This document shows, in pieces, positions 3,633-52,617 of a stretch of DNA of 64,000 bases. The notes beneath the pieces are model-generated. The model was not told where the DNA came from. It did not search any database and was given only the letters and a program-made list of their open reading frames with translations. The stretch lies in sequence record NC_048170.1; one strand, given 5' to 3'. Positions within the stretch are counted from its first letter, which is position 1. Each line of letters begins with the position of its first letter. Source of the DNA: Escherichia phage vB_EcoM_Goslar. The translations under genes were made by a program, and so were the position numbers.

Positions 3633-4652
3633 TTACACCGCCACCTTAGCCTTGATAGCGGGGTGTGATTGATATCCGACGAACACAAAGTCTTCGTAAC
3701 GGTAATCCGTAATACTTTCTGGTTTACGTACGATTGTTAGCTTCGGTAATGGATACGGCTCACGACTAAGTTGTTCTTTAACCTGTTCGAAGTGGTTGTG
3801 ATAGATGTGACAATCTCCACCCGTCCACACGAACTCACCAACGTCCATATTCAGCTGTTGGGCAAGCATGTGTGTCAGCAGTGAATATGATGCGATGTTA
3901 AAGGGAGTCCCTAAAACTGTGTCCTGTGATCTTGCGAGTAGCATGCATGATAAGGCGCGTGTCGGTACGTTGTGTGTATTCAACCAAAGTTCCGTTTCAC
4001 TGTGTCGTACATCATCCGTAACCCACTGGGTTCTTAATACGTCGTTGCGTTGAACATAATCAACACGTTCATCGATCGTGAGCTCGTGGGTATAGAACTG
4101 ATAGAAACTGTGGCATGCGGGAAGCGCCATATCGTCTAAATCACCTACGTTCCATGCGCTAACGATGATCCGTCGAGAATCAGGGTCTTCTTTAAGCTGA
4201 CGCATCACGTTTGCGATTTGGTCGTGGTGTTTAACATACAAGAGATGTTTGACCATACCGGCGTCAACAACACCGCAATACTCATAGCCGCGTTGCATCA
4301 ACTCACGAGTACGTTCTGTATCGTGCGGAACAACCACTTTGTAGTCGATCCATTCCCGCCATTGTTTGCCGTAAATCGGTCCTAGATTCCCTTCTTCGTC
4401 AGCCCATTCATTCCAGATACGAACACCGTTATCTTGAAGATAAGCAACGTTTGTGTCGCCGTTAAGAAACCAGAGCAGTTCGTGGATAACGCTCTTAAGG
4501 TGAATCTTCTTGGTGGTTACCAGCGGGAATCCTTTCTTCAAGTCAAAACGCATCTGACGCCCGAATACGGAACGGGTCCCGGTGCCTGTACGATCAGCTT
4601 TATCGCGACCGTTATCCATGATGTCTTGCAAAAGGTCCAAATACTGTTTCAT
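3633..4652 (-). CDS. thyA: thymidylate synthase
   Basis: Translation carries the ThyA core: [29 protein letters not shown] (catalytic Cys), [32 protein letters not shown]. Two insertions relative to bacterial ThyA. Confidence 0.9.
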
Positions 4653-4852
4653 TTTAATCCTCTAAGTGTTTCAAGTAGTTCCTGAAATTTATAACGATAT
4701 TTAGGATCGCTTAACGTGTAGCAGCAACCATGTAACACGTTATACGCGTAATCGGCTTGTAAACCACGAACCTTCGGATCCAATGATAGATTCAACGGTG
4801 CATCATCAAAAATCCACGCTTCAATGTTCTTCTTGGATTCCTTCGTTAACAT
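4649..4852 (-). CDS. hypothetical protein
   Basis: 67-aa ORF, 4-nt overlap with thyA start. Confidence 0.35.
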
Positions 4853-5017
4853 CGTTTTTCACCTCGTCGTAAAAGTAAATAGAGTTTTGTCGAGACGCCC
4901 TAATTACTTACAACGTCGGTTCTCCCGGCTTCAGAGAATTCTTAAAATCCGTTAGTTTTGATAGATAGGGTAAGACGGCATAAAAGCCTCCCATTACGGG
5001 AGGCTCTATTAATCAGC

Positions 5018-5566
5018 TTATTTCACAAGAACAGCGAATTCGAGAACATGAATAGCTTCATCGTCCATCGGATTTGTCGTGGTATAACCGACGAAGCAAT
5101 AGCCCATATCCACGATAAACTCTCTAAGTTTATCGATGACTGATGCCCCGATACGATCGTCAACAGACAGGCGACATTTACGGGTTATGTTTTGCCCGCG
5201 AGGAACGCCAGCTAACACGGATAGGAAATGTACGATCCGGTTATTGGTTGCGAACTGCTTGAAATCATCGTAGTGCTTAAGGTCTTTCATCGCAGACTCT
5301 ACCGTCATACGACGACCAGGCGACACATACTCAGAATAAGAATAAGCTGCAATCGTGCGGCGGTCTTCAGTGAGGTAAGTATTCCCTTCGGGATGATAGC
5401 TCTCGATTGTTCCGTCTTCATAAGCGACGGTCACAACAGGTGCGCCGTACTCGTCGCGACCGAAATCAATTTTACATTTATCCGAAAGCGGTAGAACCGT
5501 GCAAGGTTTTGCGTTGTTCTCATCAGGGAGATCGTAACCACTCATCATTTTCAAGAACATAGACAT
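5018..5566 (-). CDS. hypothetical protein, member of a tandem paralog family
   Basis: 182 aa; shares NNAKP, TIAAYSYS and a C-terminal ...VLVK with 5653-6186, and its C-terminal half with 6263-6562. Confidence 0.5.
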   Translation of the reverse strand: MSMFLKMMSGYDLPDENNAKPCTVLPLSDKCKIDFGRDEYGAPVVTVAYEDGTIESYHPEGNTYLTEDRRTIAAYSYSEYVSPGRRMTVESAMKDLKHYDDFKQFATNNRIVHFLSVLAGVPRGQNITRKCRLSVDDRIGASVIDKLREFIVDMGYCFVGYTTTNPMDDEAIHVLEFAVLVK

Positions 5567-5652
5567 AATAGAACCTCATGATAATAGATAATAGAAATGA
5601 TAGATAGTACAACAAATTGAGGGGGTATTATCCCACCCCCTCGTAGGGATTA

Positions 5653-6186
5653 CTACTTAACGATCACGATGATTTTTCCGCCCGCACCAGCGTAATATGC
5701 CGTTAAATTACCAGTAAACAACTCTTGTAAAAGACGATTTACGTGACTAACAAAGTTAGGATTGTCTGATTTTACAAACTCGATATTGCGCGTTTGTTTT
5801 ATATCACGATCGATTAAGCGTATTTCCAACAACGCACAAATAAGGCGATCGTCAAGTTTACCACTTGCATCCAGCACTTCTCCATACTTCGTAGCACGGA
5901 CGTCTGCATACATACGGTCAACATCATCCTTCCCAAAACCACAGGAATAGGCGTACGTTGCGATGGTATTACCATTGTCCATCACATAAACGTTACCGCC
6001 TGGGTAATCGATGAATCGTTGATCCTTATCACCATGAGCGACGAACTCCAGTGTCGGTCTACCTAGTGAATCGCGATTGAATTCGATTGTGGTCAAACGG
6101 TCAGGCACCACATGCAATGTAAACGGTTTCGCATTGTTACGATCGCTAGTATCGCAGTTAGCCATTACTTTTACAATAACACTCAT
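5653..6186 (-). CDS. hypothetical protein, member of a tandem paralog family
   Basis: 177 aa; NNAKP, TIATYAYS, C-terminal ...VIVK. Confidence 0.5.
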   Translation of the reverse strand: MSVIVKVMANCDTSDRNNAKPFTLHVVPDRLTTIEFNRDSLGRPTLEFVAHGDKDQRFIDYPGGNVYVMDNGNTIATYAYSCGFGKDDVDRMYADVRATKYGEVLDASGKLDDRLICALLEIRLIDRDIKQTRNIEFVKSDNPNFVSHVNRLLQELFTGNLTAYYAGAGGKIIVIVK

Positions 6187-6262
6187 GTTTATTCCTTAGT
6201 AGTCCTAGTAGTAGTAGTATTGAGGAATTTCACCTCATTAGATAATCAACTTTGGTAATGTT

Positions 6263-6562
6263 TTACTGAAACAAGACATTAAATTCGACGAGATACCCAT
6301 CGGATCTATCACCACGATATCTGTTGCAGAAAACACCGAATTTCATCAAGAACGCACATAACTCTTCGGCTTTGTATAGCGGAATACGATTTTCGTCGAG
6401 CAGAGGGCACTTATGGCTAACCCGCTCCGACGAATCAACGCAACACAAATAAAGAAGGAACCGAACGATAGCCCGGTTCTTAGTGAAGCTCTCGAATTCA
6501 CCTGCAGTTCTGAACTCATCGAGGAGCTTTGTCGTTTTCTTCAATCGTTCACGATCAAGCAT
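6263..6562 (-). CDS. hypothetical protein, resembles C-terminal half of the paralog family
   Basis: KNRAIVRFLLYL...RVSHKCPLLDENRI parallels NNRIVHFLSVL...ITRKCRLSVDDRI in 5018-5566. Start placed at the internal ATG because the longer ORF start overlaps a GC hairpin. Confidence 0.4.
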   Translation of the reverse strand: MLDRERLKKTTKLLDEFRTAGEFESFTKNRAIVRFLLYLCCVDSSERVSHKCPLLDENRIPLYKAEELCAFLMKFGVFCNRYRGDRSDGYLVEFNVLFQ

Positions 6563-6626
6563 GTTAACCTCAACACGAACATAACCCTCCTCCAACCCGT
6601 AAGGGAAGGAGGAGGTGATTATGCTG

Positions 6627-6941
6627 TTATTCTGTTTTAGGTGATGAGCCGTTCTTCTTGAAGTCGGATTCGTATTTCACGTTAGAATCGAGAACCTCAC
6701 GAACGGTTTTATCCGTACAGCCACGAGCGATGTATGCATTAAGATCATCACGTAATTTACGCATCGTTGTTTTATCCGCATCAGAAATATCTGACTTGGT
6801 AAGACGGAATGCGATTGCATCACGAATTTTATTCAACGTTGCTGGGTTATTACGCTGCTCTACAAATACCGCTTTGATGAATGTACCGCTATCTTTCGAA
6901 GCGATGGCTGCATCAAGAATCTCAATATGCTTTTCAGACAT
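6627..6941 (-). CDS. hypothetical protein
   Basis: 104-aa ORF. Confidence 0.4.
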   Translation of the reverse strand: MSEKHIEILDAAIASKDSGTFIKAVFVEQRNNPATLNKIRDAIAFRLTKSDISDADKTTMRKLRDDLNAYIARGCTDKTVREVLDSNVKYESDFKKNGSSPKTE

Positions 6942-6992: not shown

Positions 6993-8246
6993 TCACTTCG
7001 GAAGCTTAGAGGCCGCCATGCTTCGCGCCTTCGCAACGTCATACGCATCCATGATTGCATCACCGATAGCGGTATGACGGATCAACGGAATACCCATATC
7101 TGGATACTCTTTGGTACCTAAGATGGATACCGGTTTGTCTTGATATGCGGCAATCATCGAACGGATATCCTGAACCTGGTTATAACGACAAACTGGCTTA
7201 AAGCCTGCTTTACGGAACCAATGCTCTAATTGAGGCCAATCTGTTTCACCGCGAGCAAGATAATAGAAGGTATCCTTACCGTAGTAATCAGTAAACACTT
7301 CACGAATTGTGTTAATAAACTCGTTTACTTCGGCGATGGCTTCTTTATAATCCATCACTTTACTATGTTGAAAACAATAGTCACGCGCTTCCTTCGGTGC
7401 TTTGGTTTGCCACCATTCTACCGTTGATTCACTGATACGACCACCGTCGGCGATTTGACCGTGAACGTCAGGGAAGATATCTATACGTGGACCGTTAGCG
7501 ATGGATTCCGGATTAGCTAGATCAAAGAACACAATACCGATTTCCAGCAGTACCCCGTTCTTTTCCAGACTGAGATTCTCAACATCCAGACAAAAAGCGG
7601 GTTTCTCTACCGTTGAAAGATCAAAACGTCCCTCATATCGTGGTGCTGGCTCGGCACCAAGGAACGTCTCTCGGATGAACTGGGAGAATGTTATATTCTC
7701 TGCTACTAAATCAATACCCAATTTACTTAACAAAGGTATAAGTTCACGATCGTTCTGCTGAATTAGCAACATTACTTGGTCGTTGACACAACAACTAATT
7801 GAGTAAAAGAGATGAACGATATCTAACGGTTTGTACGGAGCCTCAAAAATATGTGTCTGGAACGATTGGGCTAGCGCCTTATGCGTTTCTTCACGATGAT
7901 TCATCAGTTGGAAAATAGCACAGCGCAGATAATGTCGAAGTGTTATCTCGTGAAGATGCGACGTATCTTCTTGAAATAACGTCATGAAACCGTGATACGT
8001 ATAATACTCTCCTCTTTTAATTTCTTCGTGGAGTTCTTTGTTCCCCTTTATTTCTTCTGGCGTTATCGGGTCGATCTGATCACGGATAATGTTGAGTAGA
8101 TCATCGCCGTGTACCTTAAACAGTTTTTCAACGTCAAGATTAGGTAATGTCGCAATCGCCGCGTACATTAATGTTTCTGCGGGATTAAGTTCTTTATTGT
8201 CGATTGTGGTGGTTAAAGCCATTTTATTATACCTCATCGAAATCAA
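6993..8246 (-). CDS. hypothetical protein with C-terminal DnaQ-like 3'-5' exonuclease motifs
   Basis: FCLDVEN (Exo I D-x-E), LEIGIVFFD, HTAIGDAIMDAY (Exo III H-x4-D). Confidence 0.45.
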   Translation of the reverse strand: MISMRYNKMALTTTIDNKELNPAETLMYAAIATLPNLDVEKLFKVHGDDLLNIIRDQIDPITPEEIKGNKELHEEIKRGEYYTYHGFMTLFQEDTSHLHEITLRHYLRCAIFQLMNHREETHKALAQSFQTHIFEAPYKPLDIVHLFYSISCCVNDQVMLLIQQNDRELIPLLSKLGIDLVAENITFSQFIRETFLGAEPAPRYEGRFDLSTVEKPAFCLDVENLSLEKNGVLLEIGIVFFDLANPESIANGPRIDIFPDVHGQIADGGRISESTVEWWQTKAPKEARDYCFQHSKVMDYKEAIAEVNEFINTIREVFTDYYGKDTFYYLARGETDWPQLEHWFRKAGFKPVCRYNQVQDIRSMIAAYQDKPVSILGTKEYPDMGIPLIRHTAIGDAIMDAYDVAKARSMAASKLPK

Positions 8247-12932: not shown

Positions 12933-12970
12933 CTTTATCTCCTTAACAGGTGCTGGTAACGCAGCATAAA

Positions 12971-14785: not shown

Positions 14786-14809
14786 CACGTAAGTAATATA
14801 GCCGTGAAA
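14786..14809 (-). promoter_or_regulatory. conserved promoter-like motif, copy 1
   Basis: Plus-strand cacgtaagtaatatagccgtgaaa, identical 24-mer at 38055-38078; minus-sense contains TATATTAC; 42 nt upstream of the minus gene start at 14744. Confidence 0.45.
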
Positions 14810-25055: not shown

Positions 25056-25174
25056 ACCAGGGATCCTCTTTTAAGTGTTCACATTCTAGTGTTAAGCAGT
25101 TAAAATAAACCGTCCCTTTAATCAGCATAAACATCCTCCTCCCACCACATGGGCAGGAGGAGGCGTAATATGCA

Positions 25175-38054: not shown

Positions 38055-38078
38055 CACGTAAGTAATATAGCCGTGAAA
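38055..38078 (-). promoter_or_regulatory. conserved promoter-like motif, copy 2
   Basis: Identical 24-mer to 14786-14809; 66 nt upstream of the minus gene start at 37989. Confidence 0.45.
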
Positions 38079-38087
38079 AATGTTGGA

Positions 38088-38924
38088 TTAACGTGTTCTC
38101 CTATCACGATGCGTATACGACTGAAGACCGATGTCCATATGCGGTAACGTCAGCGTCTGCCAGATCTGTCGTGCGTAACGATCGAGCGTATGATCATCAG
38201 TAACACAATCGACGGGTTCGATGAGGTGAGTCGTATACTGGCTTTTCTCAGAGAAAGGTTCGATGTTAGCTGTATCTCCTAATCCGCTTTTCACCGTGAA
38301 GACAAGACGTGTGACTACCATCGCCTTATGCTGCTGTTCATTATAGCGAAGGCTACGATATACCGCATAGCTCCCTCCTTTTAGGCTTCGGGTATAACGA
38401 AGGTCGGAGGTCGTCTCGGAAATCTGATACAGCATCCAGTCCAACGTATCACGCCAGTACGCATCATCCACATCAGGAACTGTAATACCATACCGCGTAG
38501 GCAGCAGTTCTAAAAGCAATTTATAAAGTCCGCGACGCAAGCCATGCTCTTCTGTTTCCGATAAACCGTTTCCAACATAACGTGAAATACGCGTACGTAA
38601 ATACGTACGGATGAACATATTCGCCATCAGTGTTTTCACTCTGCTACTGGTATCCTCAAAGCGATCAACGCTGAAACTCGTTTCAATCAGCCGTCCATTA
38701 AAATACAATGCGGCAACATACATCGCATTACTGCTATCACGTTCAATGTTTAAACGTCCGCAGATATTGGCTGCGTCGTTCATGGTAAATTCTAACTTAT
38801 CGTGTTCGATACGATAGATAATATCCTCTTGGGTTGCTAGGCTCGCAATACGACGATAGCCCGGAGAAGTACGTTTTACACTCATGATTGTCCTCGTTTT
38901 CAATTTTAAGATTGCATGCGGCAT
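38088..38924 (-). CDS. hypothetical protein
   Basis: 278-aa ORF. Confidence 0.45.
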   Translation of the reverse strand: MPHAILKLKTRTIMSVKRTSPGYRRIASLATQEDIIYRIEHDKLEFTMNDAANICGRLNIERDSSNAMYVAALYFNGRLIETSFSVDRFEDTSSRVKTLMANMFIRTYLRTRISRYVGNGLSETEEHGLRRGLYKLLLELLPTRYGITVPDVDDAYWRDTLDWMLYQISETTSDLRYTRSLKGGSYAVYRSLRYNEQQHKAMVVTRLVFTVKSGLGDTANIEPFSEKSQYTTHLIEPVDCVTDDHTLDRYARQIWQTLTLPHMDIGLQSYTHRDRRTR

Positions 38925-38967
38925 AAACCCTCCCCGCCTTATGCAGGGAGGGTAGCCATTAAATGGA

Positions 38968-44964: not shown

Positions 44965-44988
44965 ACCTAGGTAATATAACCCTGAAAT
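44965..44988 (-). promoter_or_regulatory. conserved promoter-like motif, copy 3
   Basis: cacctaggtaatataaccctgaaa, 20/24 identical to copies 1 and 2; 67 nt upstream of the gene start at 44898. Confidence 0.4.
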
Positions 44989-48467: not shown

Positions 48468-48530
48468 AAATCCTCCAAAAGTTATTTAGTCTGTCTACAT
48501 CATCTCGTATATCTGTTAAAAAAGAAGGAC

Positions 48531-48570
48531 GGCATAAAAAAGAACCGATCCAGCCGAAGCCAGATCGGTT
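48531..48570 (-). terminator. rho-independent terminator, minus orientation
   Basis: Stem aaccgatc/gatcggtt; minus-sense RNA continues UCUUUUUUAUGCC. Confidence 0.55.
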
Positions 48571-52564: not shown

Positions 52565-52617
52565 GCTTTCTCCTACACGGCATAAAAGCCTGCCCCGAAG
52601 GACAGGCTCGATAGAAC

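What the first reader, a model, noticed from the sequence alone, without database searches (positions are those of the whole stretch)
5018..6595. Three tandem paralogous genes of unknown function next to thyA
5018-5566 and 5653-6186 share NNAKP, TIA(A/T)Y(S/A)YS and a ...V(L/I)VK C-terminus, and 6263-6562 matches the C-terminal half (NR.IV.FL...R.S.KC.L.D.RI). Local duplication and divergence is common for host-interaction or anti-defence genes.
Basis: seen in the sequence. Interest (0 to 1): 0.45.

Follow-up and report, generated by a model that had tools for sequence, protein, structure and literature searches.

The report
Dispensable modular paralog array in phage Goslar
Three neighbouring genes of the E. 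coli jumbo phage Goslar (gp143, gp144, gp145) are real relatives built from shuffled protein modules, and close relatives of the phage carry from none to four of them, so they look like optional accessory genes whose function is still unknown.

Summary
On the minus strand, A (5018-5566, 182 aa) and B (5653-6186, 177 aa) share an N-terminal ~80-residue all-beta domain, "X" (BLASTP E=8e-14). C (6263-6562, 99 aa) is homologous to the C-terminal alpha/beta domain "Y" of A (profile-profile E=2e-9). B and C show no detectable similarity. B's C-terminal half ("Z") has the same predicted secondary-structure order as Y but no significant sequence similarity.

The window is Escherichia phage Goslar, a nucleus-forming chimallivirus. 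A=gp143, B=gp144, C=gp145. They lie between the capsid "latch" gene gp146 and gp142/thyA (gp141).

All three are under purifying selection (dN/dS 0.08-0.21). Peptides of gp143 and gp144 appear in published virion mass spectrometry.

In 19 Goslar-like contigs the array holds 0 to 4 genes: a clean deletion of C, a C/A chimera, extra paralogs, and one contig with no intact member.

X occurs alone or fused to unrelated C-termini in 68 phage records. It matches no Pfam, NCBIfam or PADLOC family and no solved fold.

The best reading is a dispensable accessory array of non-enzymatic binding proteins. An anti-defence role is neither supported nor excluded. This is an ordinary kind of phage locus, documented in detail in a tractable model phage.

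The parts
5018..5566 (-). Gene A = Goslar gp143 (YP_009820828.1), 182 aa, architecture X+Y
   Evidence: ORF. It is 100% identical to Goslar A0A482GHT7. The calculated mass of 20637.2 Da matches the 20637.5 Da listed for HOV27_gp143 in Table S4 of bioRxiv 10.64898/2026.04.21.720040. The peptide DLPDENNAKPCTVLPLSDK was detected. There are 36 orthologue clusters at 67-99% identity. dN/dS is 0.09-0.18. The AlphaFold model has pLDDT 88.2 and pTM 0.73.
5333..5566 (-). X domain of A (residues 1-78), seven predicted beta-strands
   Evidence: Homologous to B residues 1-81. The X HMM hits only A and B in the six-frame translation of the window, E about 4e-34. Strands E3-8 to E70-75 are in the model.
5021..5320 (-). 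Y domain of A (residues 83-182), predicted order H-H-H-E-H-E-E
5653..6186 (-). Gene B = Goslar gp144 (YP_009820829.1), 177 aa, architecture X+Z
   Evidence: ORF. The calculated mass of 19832.3 Da matches the 19832.5 Da listed for HOV27_gp144. The peptide AYSCGFGKDDVDR was detected. dN/dS is 0.08-0.13. The model has pLDDT 86.8 and pTM 0.72, with the same element order as A. It matches phrog_10337 (1.8e-7) and phrog_10807 (5.4e-6).
5944..6186 (-). X domain of B (residues 1-81)
   Evidence: Strands E3-8 to E73-78 are in the model.
5656..5931 (-). Z domain of B (residues 86-177), predicted order H-H-H-E-H-E-E, no significant sequence similarity to Y
6263..6562 (-). Gene C = Goslar gp145 (assigned by position), 99 aa, Y domain alone with a short N-terminal helix
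   Evidence: ORF. The ATG start is supported by the 99-aa orthologues P0047 (98% identity, 120 member sequences) and P0048 (72%). dN/dS is 0.11-0.21. It was not found in the part of the virion mass-spectrometry table that is held.
6578..6625 (-). Strong stem-loop after gp146, followed by UUAUGUUCG and the C ribosome-binding site; probable terminator plus restart site
   Evidence: RNA fold -28.6 kcal/mol, z=-6.4. Sequence. The hairpin is present in inverted orientation in L002.
5619..5642 (-). Terminator-like hairpin after B, followed by an AT-rich spacer upstream of A
   Evidence: Fold -18.0 kcal/mol, z=-2.1.
4984..5006 (-). Terminator-like hairpin after A, followed by UUUUAUGCCG
   Evidence: Sequence. 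Fold -18.3 kcal/mol, z=-3.65. TTATGCCG at 4976-4983 belongs to a recurrent hairpin+TTATGCYG motif.
6627..6941 (-). Upstream boundary of the array: gp146, capsid 'latch' protein (104 aa)
   Evidence: The calculated mass of 11669.0 Da matches 11669.2 Da for HOV27_gp146. Its role is described in bioRxiv 10.64898/2026.04.21.720040. It is conserved in all surveyed loci.
3633..4852 (-). Downstream boundary of the array: gp142 (67 aa, 4649-4852) and thyA = gp141 (339 aa, 3633-4652)
   Evidence: PF00303 E=9e-114. Listed as YP_009820826.1 thymidylate synthase in Table S4. Conserved in the surveyed loci.

Best explanation
gp143, gp144 and gp145 of phage Goslar form a dispensable accessory array of old, modular paralogs.

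Shown:
- Each protein is built from a conserved N-terminal beta-domain X (present in A and B) and/or a fast-diverging C-terminal alpha/beta domain (Y in A and C, Z in B).
- The genes are kept under purifying selection, and gp143 and gp144 are translated.
- The array varies from 0 to 4 members among near-identical phage backbones, through deletion, chimera formation, allele replacement and addition of further paralogs (B2, D).
- X also occurs as a stand-alone ~80-aa protein and fused to unrelated C-termini in many unrelated phages.

Inferred:
- The proteins carry no recognisable catalytic motif, transmembrane segment or known fold.
- They most likely act stoichiometrically as binding proteins. 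X would engage a widely conserved partner and the variable C-terminal module would set specificity.
- They would serve a condition-dependent job in host, defence or competitor interaction rather than a core replication or assembly step.
- Expression is probably not from a canonical early promoter. The array follows the late capsid gene gp146, and a TATG-type motif follows the gp146 hairpin.
- Low-copy packaging of gp143 into virions is possible but not shown.
For: - Homology and modularity.
- Same predicted element order in A and B (seven strands, then H-H-H-E-H-E-E), both models confident.
- Identity as Goslar gp143-145.
- Translation: peptides of gp143 and gp144.
- Purifying selection: dN/dS 0.08-0.21, against 0.02-0.11 for thyA.
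- Dispensability and turnover:
  - C-B-A in the window, L005, L006, L022, L019, L020 and L027.
  - B-A with the C ORF removed from its start codon to just before its stop in L002 and L003.
  - A single 81-aa C/A chimera in L008.
  - No intact member in L021, a 238-kb contig.
  - C-D-B-A in L023, L024, L025 and L028.
  - C-D-deltaB-A in L012.
  - C-B2-B-A in L013 and L014.
  - Sources.
- Allele replacement: dS of C between the window and L005 is 1.1, against 0.2 for the adjacent gp146. dS of B in L013 is above 2, against 0.47 for thyA.
- Separate transcription signals: hairpins after gp146, B and A.
- X is an autonomous, widespread module. It occurs as 78-107-aa stand-alone proteins and in 68 phage records, including Erwinia RAY gp198, 201phi2-1 gp34, phiCbK-like phages and 45-kb Acinetobacter phages. 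It is often a lone gene on the opposite strand to its neighbours.
- No TATATTAC early-promoter motif lies near the array, whereas chimallin has one.
Against: - There is no direct functional evidence of any kind.
- There is no match to any defence-related, anti-defence-related or other family, nor to any solved structure.
- Gene-wide dN/dS gives no sign of an arms race. Site-wise tests were not run.
- The 'binding adaptor' model is an argument from absence of catalytic features.
- gp143 is estimated at about 4.5-10.5 copies per virion, 10-50 times above DNA polymerase or nvRNAP carry-over. A virion-associated role therefore remains open.
Confidence: 0.4

Rival explanations
1. They are low-copy virion or assembly-associated proteins. 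Made late together with the capsid latch protein gp146, gp143 (and perhaps gp144) would be packaged in a few copies. They would act either in head assembly or, after injection, at the earliest stage of infection.
For: - The array lies directly downstream of the capsid latch gene gp146.
- A TATG-type motif follows the gp146 hairpin, and there is no early-promoter motif nearby.
- gp143 is estimated at 4.5-10.5 and gp144 at 1.1-2.6 copies per virion. DNA polymerase and nvRNAP are at 0.1-0.5, and the true virion RNA polymerase subunit gp078 is at 14-33.
- The X-only gene of Acinetobacter phage WCHABP12 directly follows terminase, portal and head-morphogenesis genes.
- 201phi2-1 gp34 sits beside the tail tube and sheath genes.
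Against: - thyA, a metabolic enzyme, scores 13-32 copies in the same table, and many E. coli proteins are present, so carry-over at this level is plausible.
- gp143-145 are not among the 28 modelled structural proteins or the high-copy proteins named in the paper.
- 201phi2-1 gp34 carries no 'identified by mass spectrometry' note, unlike its neighbours.
- A 238-kb relative lacks the whole array.
- There is no PF12699 or DUF7941 match.
Confidence: 0.2
2. They are auxiliary nucleic-acid or nucleotide-metabolism factors. These would be small RNA-, DNA- or nucleotide-binding proteins that work with the neighbouring thymidylate synthase and Rv2179c-like exonuclease.
For: - The genes lie between thyA and an Rv2179c-like 3'-5' exonuclease (PF16473 E=5e-17, phrog_255 E=3e-30).
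- X has a conserved set of polar residues (K6, D15, K20, R38, G64-N65, Y67, T74 in B numbering), which could form a ligand pocket.
- In another chimallivirus the X gene lies next to the DNA polymerase.
Against: - The genomic context of X is not conserved across phages.
- Presence/absence variation among relatives that all keep thyA and the exonuclease argues against a coupled function.
Confidence: 0.12
3. They are decaying leftovers of duplication with no function of their own.
For: The array is lost, truncated or chimeric in some relatives.
Against: - dN/dS is 0.08-0.21 across dS up to 1.1-3.
- ORFs are intact in most of the 19 loci.
- Peptides were detected for gp143 and gp144.
- Both structure models are confident.
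- X is conserved across very distant phages.
Confidence: 0.03

Closest known systems
Phage accessory regions and 'moron'-like accessory genes (Silas et al., bioRxiv 10.1101/2023.04.06.535777; abstract seen)
   Same: Small, uncharacterised genes sit between conserved flanking genes. They vary in presence or absence among close relatives, carry their own hairpin and promoter-like signals, and are dispensable in some genomes.
   Different: No counter-defence or toxicity phenotype has been tested here. The genes form a paralog family with shuffled domains rather than a set of unrelated cargo genes.
Hyperplastic internal-protein (ip) locus of T4-type phages, with promoter/stem-loop cassettes (from my own knowledge of Comeau and Krisch and of Arbiol et al.; not checked here)
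   Same: A tandem array of small genes differs in number and identity between close relatives. The proteins share a conserved N-terminal part and a variable body. Stem-loops lie between the genes. The products may be packaged and injected.
   Different: The conserved part here is an ~80-residue folded beta-domain, not a ~10-residue capsid-targeting peptide. The estimated virion copy number is 1-10, not hundreds. The intergenic hairpins differ in sequence, and the deletion endpoints do not map to them. No protease processing is shown.
PF12699 inner-body/injected-protein paralogs and DUF7941 paralogs of chimalliviruses (bioRxiv 10.1101/2024.03.24.586471; bioRxiv 10.64898/2026.04.21.720040)
   Same: These are paralogous gene families within chimallivirus genomes that share one domain and differ in the rest of the protein.
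   Different: There is no sequence match to either family. Those families are high-copy virion proteins, whereas gp143 and gp144 are trace-level. The X domain is not restricted to chimalliviruses.
PHROG families phrog_10337 and phrog_10807 (unknown function)
   Same: B matches both (E=1.8e-7 and 5.4e-6) and A matches both weakly (3e-3 and 8e-3), over the X domain. The profile lengths of 99 and 379 fit the stand-alone and the RAY gp198/MadMel-type long forms.
   Different: These families carry no annotation, so membership adds no functional information. The Y and Z domains are not covered by them.

Membership tests
X-domain family (phrog_10337 / phrog_10807; no Pfam entry) | Significant profile match over the ~80-residue N-terminal domain | tested here: met
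   B matches at E=1.8e-7 and 5.4e-6; A is weaker at 3e-3 and 8e-3. An X HMM built here hits A and B at about 4e-34. A consensus X sequence finds 68 phage records by tblastn. An HMMER scan of 1.84 billion representatives finds stand-alone X proteins of 78-106 aa at E=3e-4 to 2e-5.
X-domain family | Conserved residues K6, M8, D15, K20, R38, G64-N65-x-Y67 and T74 (B numbering) | tested here: met
   These columns are invariant or nearly invariant in alignments A1 and A4, and both A and B carry them.
Y-domain family (A C-terminus and C; Goslar-like phages only) | Profile-profile or HMM match over ~85-100 residues | tested here: met
   hhalign probability 96%, E=2e-9. The Y HMM hits only A and C in the window. 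P0055 is a more distant member. B does not match.
PF12699 phiKZ-like internal head proteins | Pfam PF12699 domain match | tested here: not met
   No Pfam hit for A, B or C at E<=0.1.
DUF7941 chimallivirus virion paralogs | Pfam DUF7941 match | tested here: not met
   No Pfam hit. gp143-145 are not in the paper's list of Goslar DUF7941 proteins.
Known anti-phage-defence system components (PADLOC-DB) | Match to any PADLOC model | tested here: not met
   No hits at E<=0.5 for A, B, C or four X-domain relatives.
Known anti-defence proteins with solved structures (nucleotide sponges, anti-CRISPRs, Ocr-like mimics) | Fold or sequence similarity to a solved anti-defence protein | tested here: not met
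Phage accessory region (operational definition) | Variable gene content between conserved flanking genes in closely related genomes | tested here: met
   There are 0-4 array genes between conserved gp146 and gp142/thyA in 19 loci whose flanks are 89-94% identical at the DNA level.
Phage accessory region (operational definition) | Counter-defence, toxicity or exclusion phenotype | not testable with these tools
   This requires experiments.

The most novel reading that the evidence does not exclude
The X domain may define a new, widespread family of phage effectors. A conserved beta-module would dock onto a conserved cellular or viral target, and swappable C-terminal modules would redirect or tune it. 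In Goslar, gp143 would be packaged at a few copies per virion and injected. It would then act before the phage nucleus forms, for example against a host defence or a competing phage. That would explain why relatives carry different sets of paralogs.
Probability: 0.15. Interest if true: 0.65.

Novelty: new member of a known kind. Interest (0 to 1): 0.33.

Why it matters
Goslar is a genetically and structurally tractable E. coli model for nucleus-forming jumbo phages. Most of its genes, like these three, are annotated as hypothetical.

This work turns three anonymous ORFs into a defined system: two domain families, confident structure models and a map of natural knock-outs, chimeras and expansions. 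Deletion, host-range and pull-down experiments can be designed directly from it.

The X domain is found in at least 68 sequenced phages of very different types and has no Pfam entry, so it is a candidate for a new domain family.

If the array proves to be a counter-defence or injected-effector module, it would add to the sparse list of accessory functions known for chimalliviruses. If not, it remains a well-documented but ordinary plastic locus.

Tried and rejected
- **Nearby sequenced relatives.** Megablast, blastn and tblastn of the region against the phage, plasmid and E. coli collections found nothing close. Goslar itself is absent from the phage collection. The only plasmid hit, a 222-kb Enterobacter ludwigii 'plasmid' that looks like a jumbo phage, shares thyA but has no A, B or C homologue next to it.
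- **Family libraries.** Pfam, PHROGs, NCBIfam and PADLOC scans of A, B, C and of longer X-domain proteins (RAY gp198, 201phi2-1 gp34, Proteus phage 10 QMP24040, D and others) gave nothing informative.
- **Fold searches.**
  - Foldseek of model B against the PDB gave nothing.
  - BFVD returned only uncharacterised phage proteins.
  - The afdb50 library was unavailable.
- **Linking Y to Z.** I tried profiles and intermediate sequences (D, P0053, P0055, P0058, P0052). hhalign produced a colinear but non-significant alignment, E=0.69. I could not superpose the two models because their coordinates are not exposed.
- **A false lead.** The 1280-aa hit P0054 in the representative search is an ankyrin-repeat protein matched over five repeats. 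I discarded it as spurious.
- **Further paralogs in the window.** X, Y and Z HMMs run against all six-frame ORFs found none.
- **A PeSL-like shuffling mechanism.** The three intergenic hairpins differ in sequence, and the deletion endpoints in L002, L008 and L021 lie inside coding sequence or at start and stop codons, not in the hairpins. I did not adopt this idea.
- **Literature.** Searches for gp143-145, their accession numbers and 201phi2-1 gp34 found no functional study.
- **Scans with gp146 as anchor.** The genome-contig scan found nothing. The IMG/VR scan gave one locus and the metagenome scan nine.
Full report
**What is at the coordinates**

The region carries three ORFs on the minus strand:
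- A, 5018-5566, 182 aa.
- B, 5653-6186, 177 aa.
- C, 6263-6595 from a TTG start (110 aa), or 6263-6562 from the first ATG (99 aa).

Their neighbours on the same strand are thyA (3633-4652; PF00303 E=9e-114), a 67-aa ORF (4649-4852), a 104-aa ORF (6627-6941) and a 417-aa Rv2179c-like exonuclease (6993-8246).

**Is the similarity real?**

A and B align over their first ~80 residues at 36% identity (BLASTP E=8e-14). The Smith-Waterman score is 129, against 30.2 +/- 4.9 in 1000 shuffles.

The C-terminal half of A aligns with C:
- Smith-Waterman scores 76 against 27.3 +/- 4.6, with 0 of 1000 shuffles reaching it.
- phmmer gives E=9e-8, and 1e-10 to the C orthologue P0048.
- BLASTP of A against three C orthologues gives 1.5e-8 to 1e-5.
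- A profile of A-family C-termini against a profile of the C family gives hhalign probability 96%, E=2e-9 over 84 columns.

The single-pair BLASTP tool found nothing for A against the 110-aa version of C. That link is therefore weaker than A-B, but it is solid once orthologues are used.

B and C are not detectably similar (score 29 against 27 +/- 4.7). Neither are the C-terminal halves of A and B (score 22 against 25.6; hhalign E=0.2-0.7). The shared VLVK/VIVK ending is not evidence on its own.

The family is modular: A=X+Y, B=X+Z, C=Y.

**Structure predictions**

Both models are confident: A has pLDDT 88.2 and pTM 0.73, and B has pLDDT 86.8 and pTM 0.72. They have the same order of elements, seven beta-strands (X) followed by H-H-H-E-H-E-E.

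Neither model resembles a solved structure informatively:
- Foldseek against the PDB finds nothing below E=0.1.
- A profile search of PDB sequences gives a best E of 0.26.

**What the window is**

The large ORFs of the window include split multisubunit RNA polymerase beta subunits, a chimallin-type nuclear shell protein and a divergent DNA polymerase. The window therefore comes from a nucleus-forming jumbo phage.

The BFVD fold search returned a 182-aa protein of Escherichia phage vB_EcoM_Goslar that is 100% identical to A.

I matched calculated masses to Table S4 of the 2026 Goslar structure preprint (bioRxiv 10.64898/2026.04.21.720040). This gives:
- A = gp143 (20637 Da).
- B = gp144 (19832 Da).
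- The 104-aa protein = gp146 (11669 Da), the capsid 'latch' protein that stabilises the penton.
- thyA = gp141.
- C = gp145, by position.

Goslar is missing from the phage collection that was searched, which explains the empty DNA searches.

No paper in the library discusses Goslar gp143-145.

**Are they real genes?**

- *Conservation.* A has 36 orthologue clusters at 67-99% identity, many on 235-250-kb contigs. C has 99-aa orthologues. B has orthologues and more distant paralogs.
- *Selection.* Pairwise Nei-Gojobori dN/dS is 0.09-0.18 for A, 0.08-0.13 for B and 0.11-0.21 for C. The values are 0.03-0.17 for gp146 and 0.02-0.11 for thyA.
- *Peptides.* Peptides of gp143 (DLPDENNAKPCTVLPLSDK) and gp144 (AYSCGFGKDDVDR) are in the published virion mass-spectrometry data.

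All three are therefore under purifying selection, and gp143 and gp144 are shown to be translated. They are not decaying duplicates.

**The array is highly plastic**

I collected 19 Goslar-like loci that span gp146 to thyA and classified their ORFs with X, Y and Z HMMs. The states found are:

| State | Loci | Source |
|---|---|---|
| C-B-A | window, L005, L006, L022 | |
| C-B-A plus a 293-327-aa gene after A (a DUF7448 protein in L013) | L019, L020, L027 | |
| B-A; the C ORF is removed from its start codon to about 10 nt before its stop, leaving its ribosome-binding site | L002, L003 | |
| A single 81-aa C/A chimera (P0049), made by an out-of-register, microhomology-type deletion from codon ~34 of C to codon ~141 of A, with the reading frame restored | L008 | |
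| No intact member; only the C-deletion scar and the last ~90 nt of A remain, on a 238-kb contig | L021 | |
| C-D-B-A, where D is a 198-201-aa X-domain paralog; the L012 copy aligns with A over its full length at 25% identity | L023, L024, L025, L028 | |
| C-B2-B-A, where B2 is 39% identical to B | L013, L014 | |

Synonymous divergence is also uneven along the locus. Between the window and L005, dS is 1.1 for C but 0.2 for the adjacent gp146. Between the window and L013, dS is above 2 for B but 0.47 for thyA. This indicates replacement by divergent alleles.

The paralogs themselves are old (25-39% identity, with no DNA-level similarity). Today's variation is therefore loss, gain and recombination, not fresh duplication.

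No further X, Y or Z member lies elsewhere in the 64-kb window.

**Distribution of the modules**

X is autonomous and widespread:
- *Stand-alone proteins.* It occurs as 78-107-aa proteins. One example sits next to the DNA polymerase and chimallin of another chimallivirus. Another is in a ~62-kb non-jumbo phage.
- *Fused to other C-termini.* These include Proteus phage 10 QMP24040 (239 aa), 201phi2-1 gp34 (228 aa), Erwinia RAY gp198 (379 aa), P0053, P0058 and P0061.
- *In sequenced phages.* A consensus X sequence finds 68 phage records by tblastn, one place per record. They include phiCbK-like Caulobacter phages and 45-kb Acinetobacter Obolenskvirus phages, and all are annotated as hypothetical.

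The gene is often a lone gene on the opposite strand to its neighbours, and its context is not conserved.

B matches phrog_10337 and phrog_10807, and A matches them weakly. Both families have unknown function. There is no Pfam, NCBIfam or PADLOC match.

Y was found only in Goslar-like phages and one more distant protein, P0055.

**Transcription signals (sequence-based inference only)**

Strong stem-loops follow three genes:
- gp146: -28.6 kcal/mol, z=-6.4.
- B: -18.0 kcal/mol, z=-2.1.
- A: -18.3 kcal/mol, z=-3.65, followed by a U-run.

There is none after C. C and B may therefore form one transcription unit and A another.

The phiKZ-type early motif TATATTAC occurs upstream of chimallin and two other genes, within a longer conserved box, but not near the array. 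A hairpin followed by TTATGCYG recurs at several intergenic sites, including just after A. A close variant, TTATGTTCG, follows the gp146 hairpin just upstream of C. From my own knowledge of phiKZ promoters (TATATTAC early, TATG late), this hints at non-early expression. It was not tested.

**What they most likely do**

There is no evidence for a specific activity. Four things are shown: dispensability in nature, purifying selection where the genes are present, translation of gp143 and gp144, and a modular build with an autonomous conserved domain and a fast-diverging partner domain.

The best-supported reading (confidence about 0.4) is a condition-dependent accessory array of non-enzymatic binding proteins. 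X would bind a widely conserved partner and the C-terminal module would set specificity. The array would serve host, defence or competitor interactions.

The main rival (about 0.2) is a low-copy virion-associated or injected role:
- *For.* gp143 is estimated at 4.5-10.5 copies per virion and gp144 at 1.1-2.6. That is well above DNA polymerase and nvRNAP carry-over (0.1-0.5). The array also follows a capsid gene.
- *Against.* thyA scores 13-32 copies in the same preparation, and host proteins are present.

The two readings can be combined as a packaged early effector. That is the most novel reading I cannot exclude (probability about 0.15).

A nucleic-acid or nucleotide-metabolism helper role (about 0.12) rests only on neighbourhood and on weak fold resemblance. 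Non-functional remnants are essentially excluded.

**Comparison with what is known, and verdict**

The locus behaves like the accessory regions described for other phages. From my own knowledge, it also resembles the hyperplastic internal-protein locus of T4-type phages. It is not a member of the known chimallivirus paralog families PF12699 or DUF7941.

The genes are already annotated as hypothetical proteins in a published genome. What is new is their domain-level relationship, the natural series of array states and the breadth of the X domain.

I rate it a new member of a known kind, with moderate-to-low interest (0.33). It is valuable mainly because Goslar is a tractable model and the experiments are now obvious.

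Noticed in passing
whole window; P0003, P0021, P0028, P0035: The window is Escherichia phage Goslar, which is absent from the searched phage collection. Goslar-like contigs of 235-250 kb occur in NCBI isolate assemblies labelled Salmonella enterica (Anatum, Panama) and E. coli O157. This suggests carrier-state infection or contamination of sequenced cultures. The chimallin is only ~23% identical to that of any phage in the collection.
   Followed up: partly
window 14793-14800, 38062-38069, 44971-44978 (minus strand): A conserved box, C(A/G)GG(C/T)TATATTAC(T/C)TA(C/G)GTGA, lies upstream of chimallin and two other genes. Its core equals the phiKZ early-promoter motif as I recall it. It is probably the Goslar early (virion RNA polymerase) promoter.
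   Followed up: partly
window 4976-4983, 12962-12969, 25123-25130, 38919-38926, 48530-48537, 52578-52585 (minus strand): A GC-rich hairpin immediately followed by TTTATGC(C/T)G recurs in intergenic regions. It looks like a combined terminator and TATG-type (middle/late) promoter cassette. TTATGYYG occurs 20 times, against 9.8 +/- 3.3 expected.
   Followed up: partly
window 3633-4652 (thyA, gp141): The thymidylate synthase is 339 aa against a 266-position Pfam profile, so it carries about 70 extra residues as insertions. It is estimated at 13-32 copies per virion in the published mass spectrometry, as high as a virion RNA polymerase subunit.
   Followed up: no
window 6993-8246 (gp147 exonuclease); L002 3537-4862; L005 3341-4570: The Rv2179c-like exonuclease keeps its C-terminal nuclease domain but has different N-terminal regions and lengths (417, 441 and 409 aa) in close relatives. 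The plastic zone therefore extends beyond the array.
   Followed up: no
window 6578-6625 vs L002 5238-5268: The terminator hairpin after gp146 is present in reverse-complement orientation in the contig that lacks gene C (L002). L021 has the same C-deletion scar but keeps the window's orientation.
   Followed up: partly
L013 2325-3209; L019, L020, L023, L024, L027 between gene A and gp142: Several relatives carry an extra 287-327-aa gene between A and gp142. In L013 it is a DUF7448 protein. L027 has a 192-aa gp142 and L023 has an extra 109-aa ORF. This junction is a second insertion hotspot.
   Followed up: no
L001 (NZ_CP134650.1, Enterobacter ludwigii 'plasmid unnamed1', 222 kb): This record is annotated as a circular non-mobilisable plasmid. 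It encodes a giant SLT-domain protein (a 7.1-kb gene) and a phage-type thyA (68% DNA identity) among hypothetical genes. It is probably a jumbo phage genome deposited as a plasmid.
   Followed up: no
Table S4 peptides of gp143 and gp144: The one peptide retrieved for each protein begins right after a tyrosine (Y11|D12 in gp143, Y78|A79 in gp144), so both are semi-tryptic. The cause could be chymotryptic side activity or real processing.
   Followed up: no
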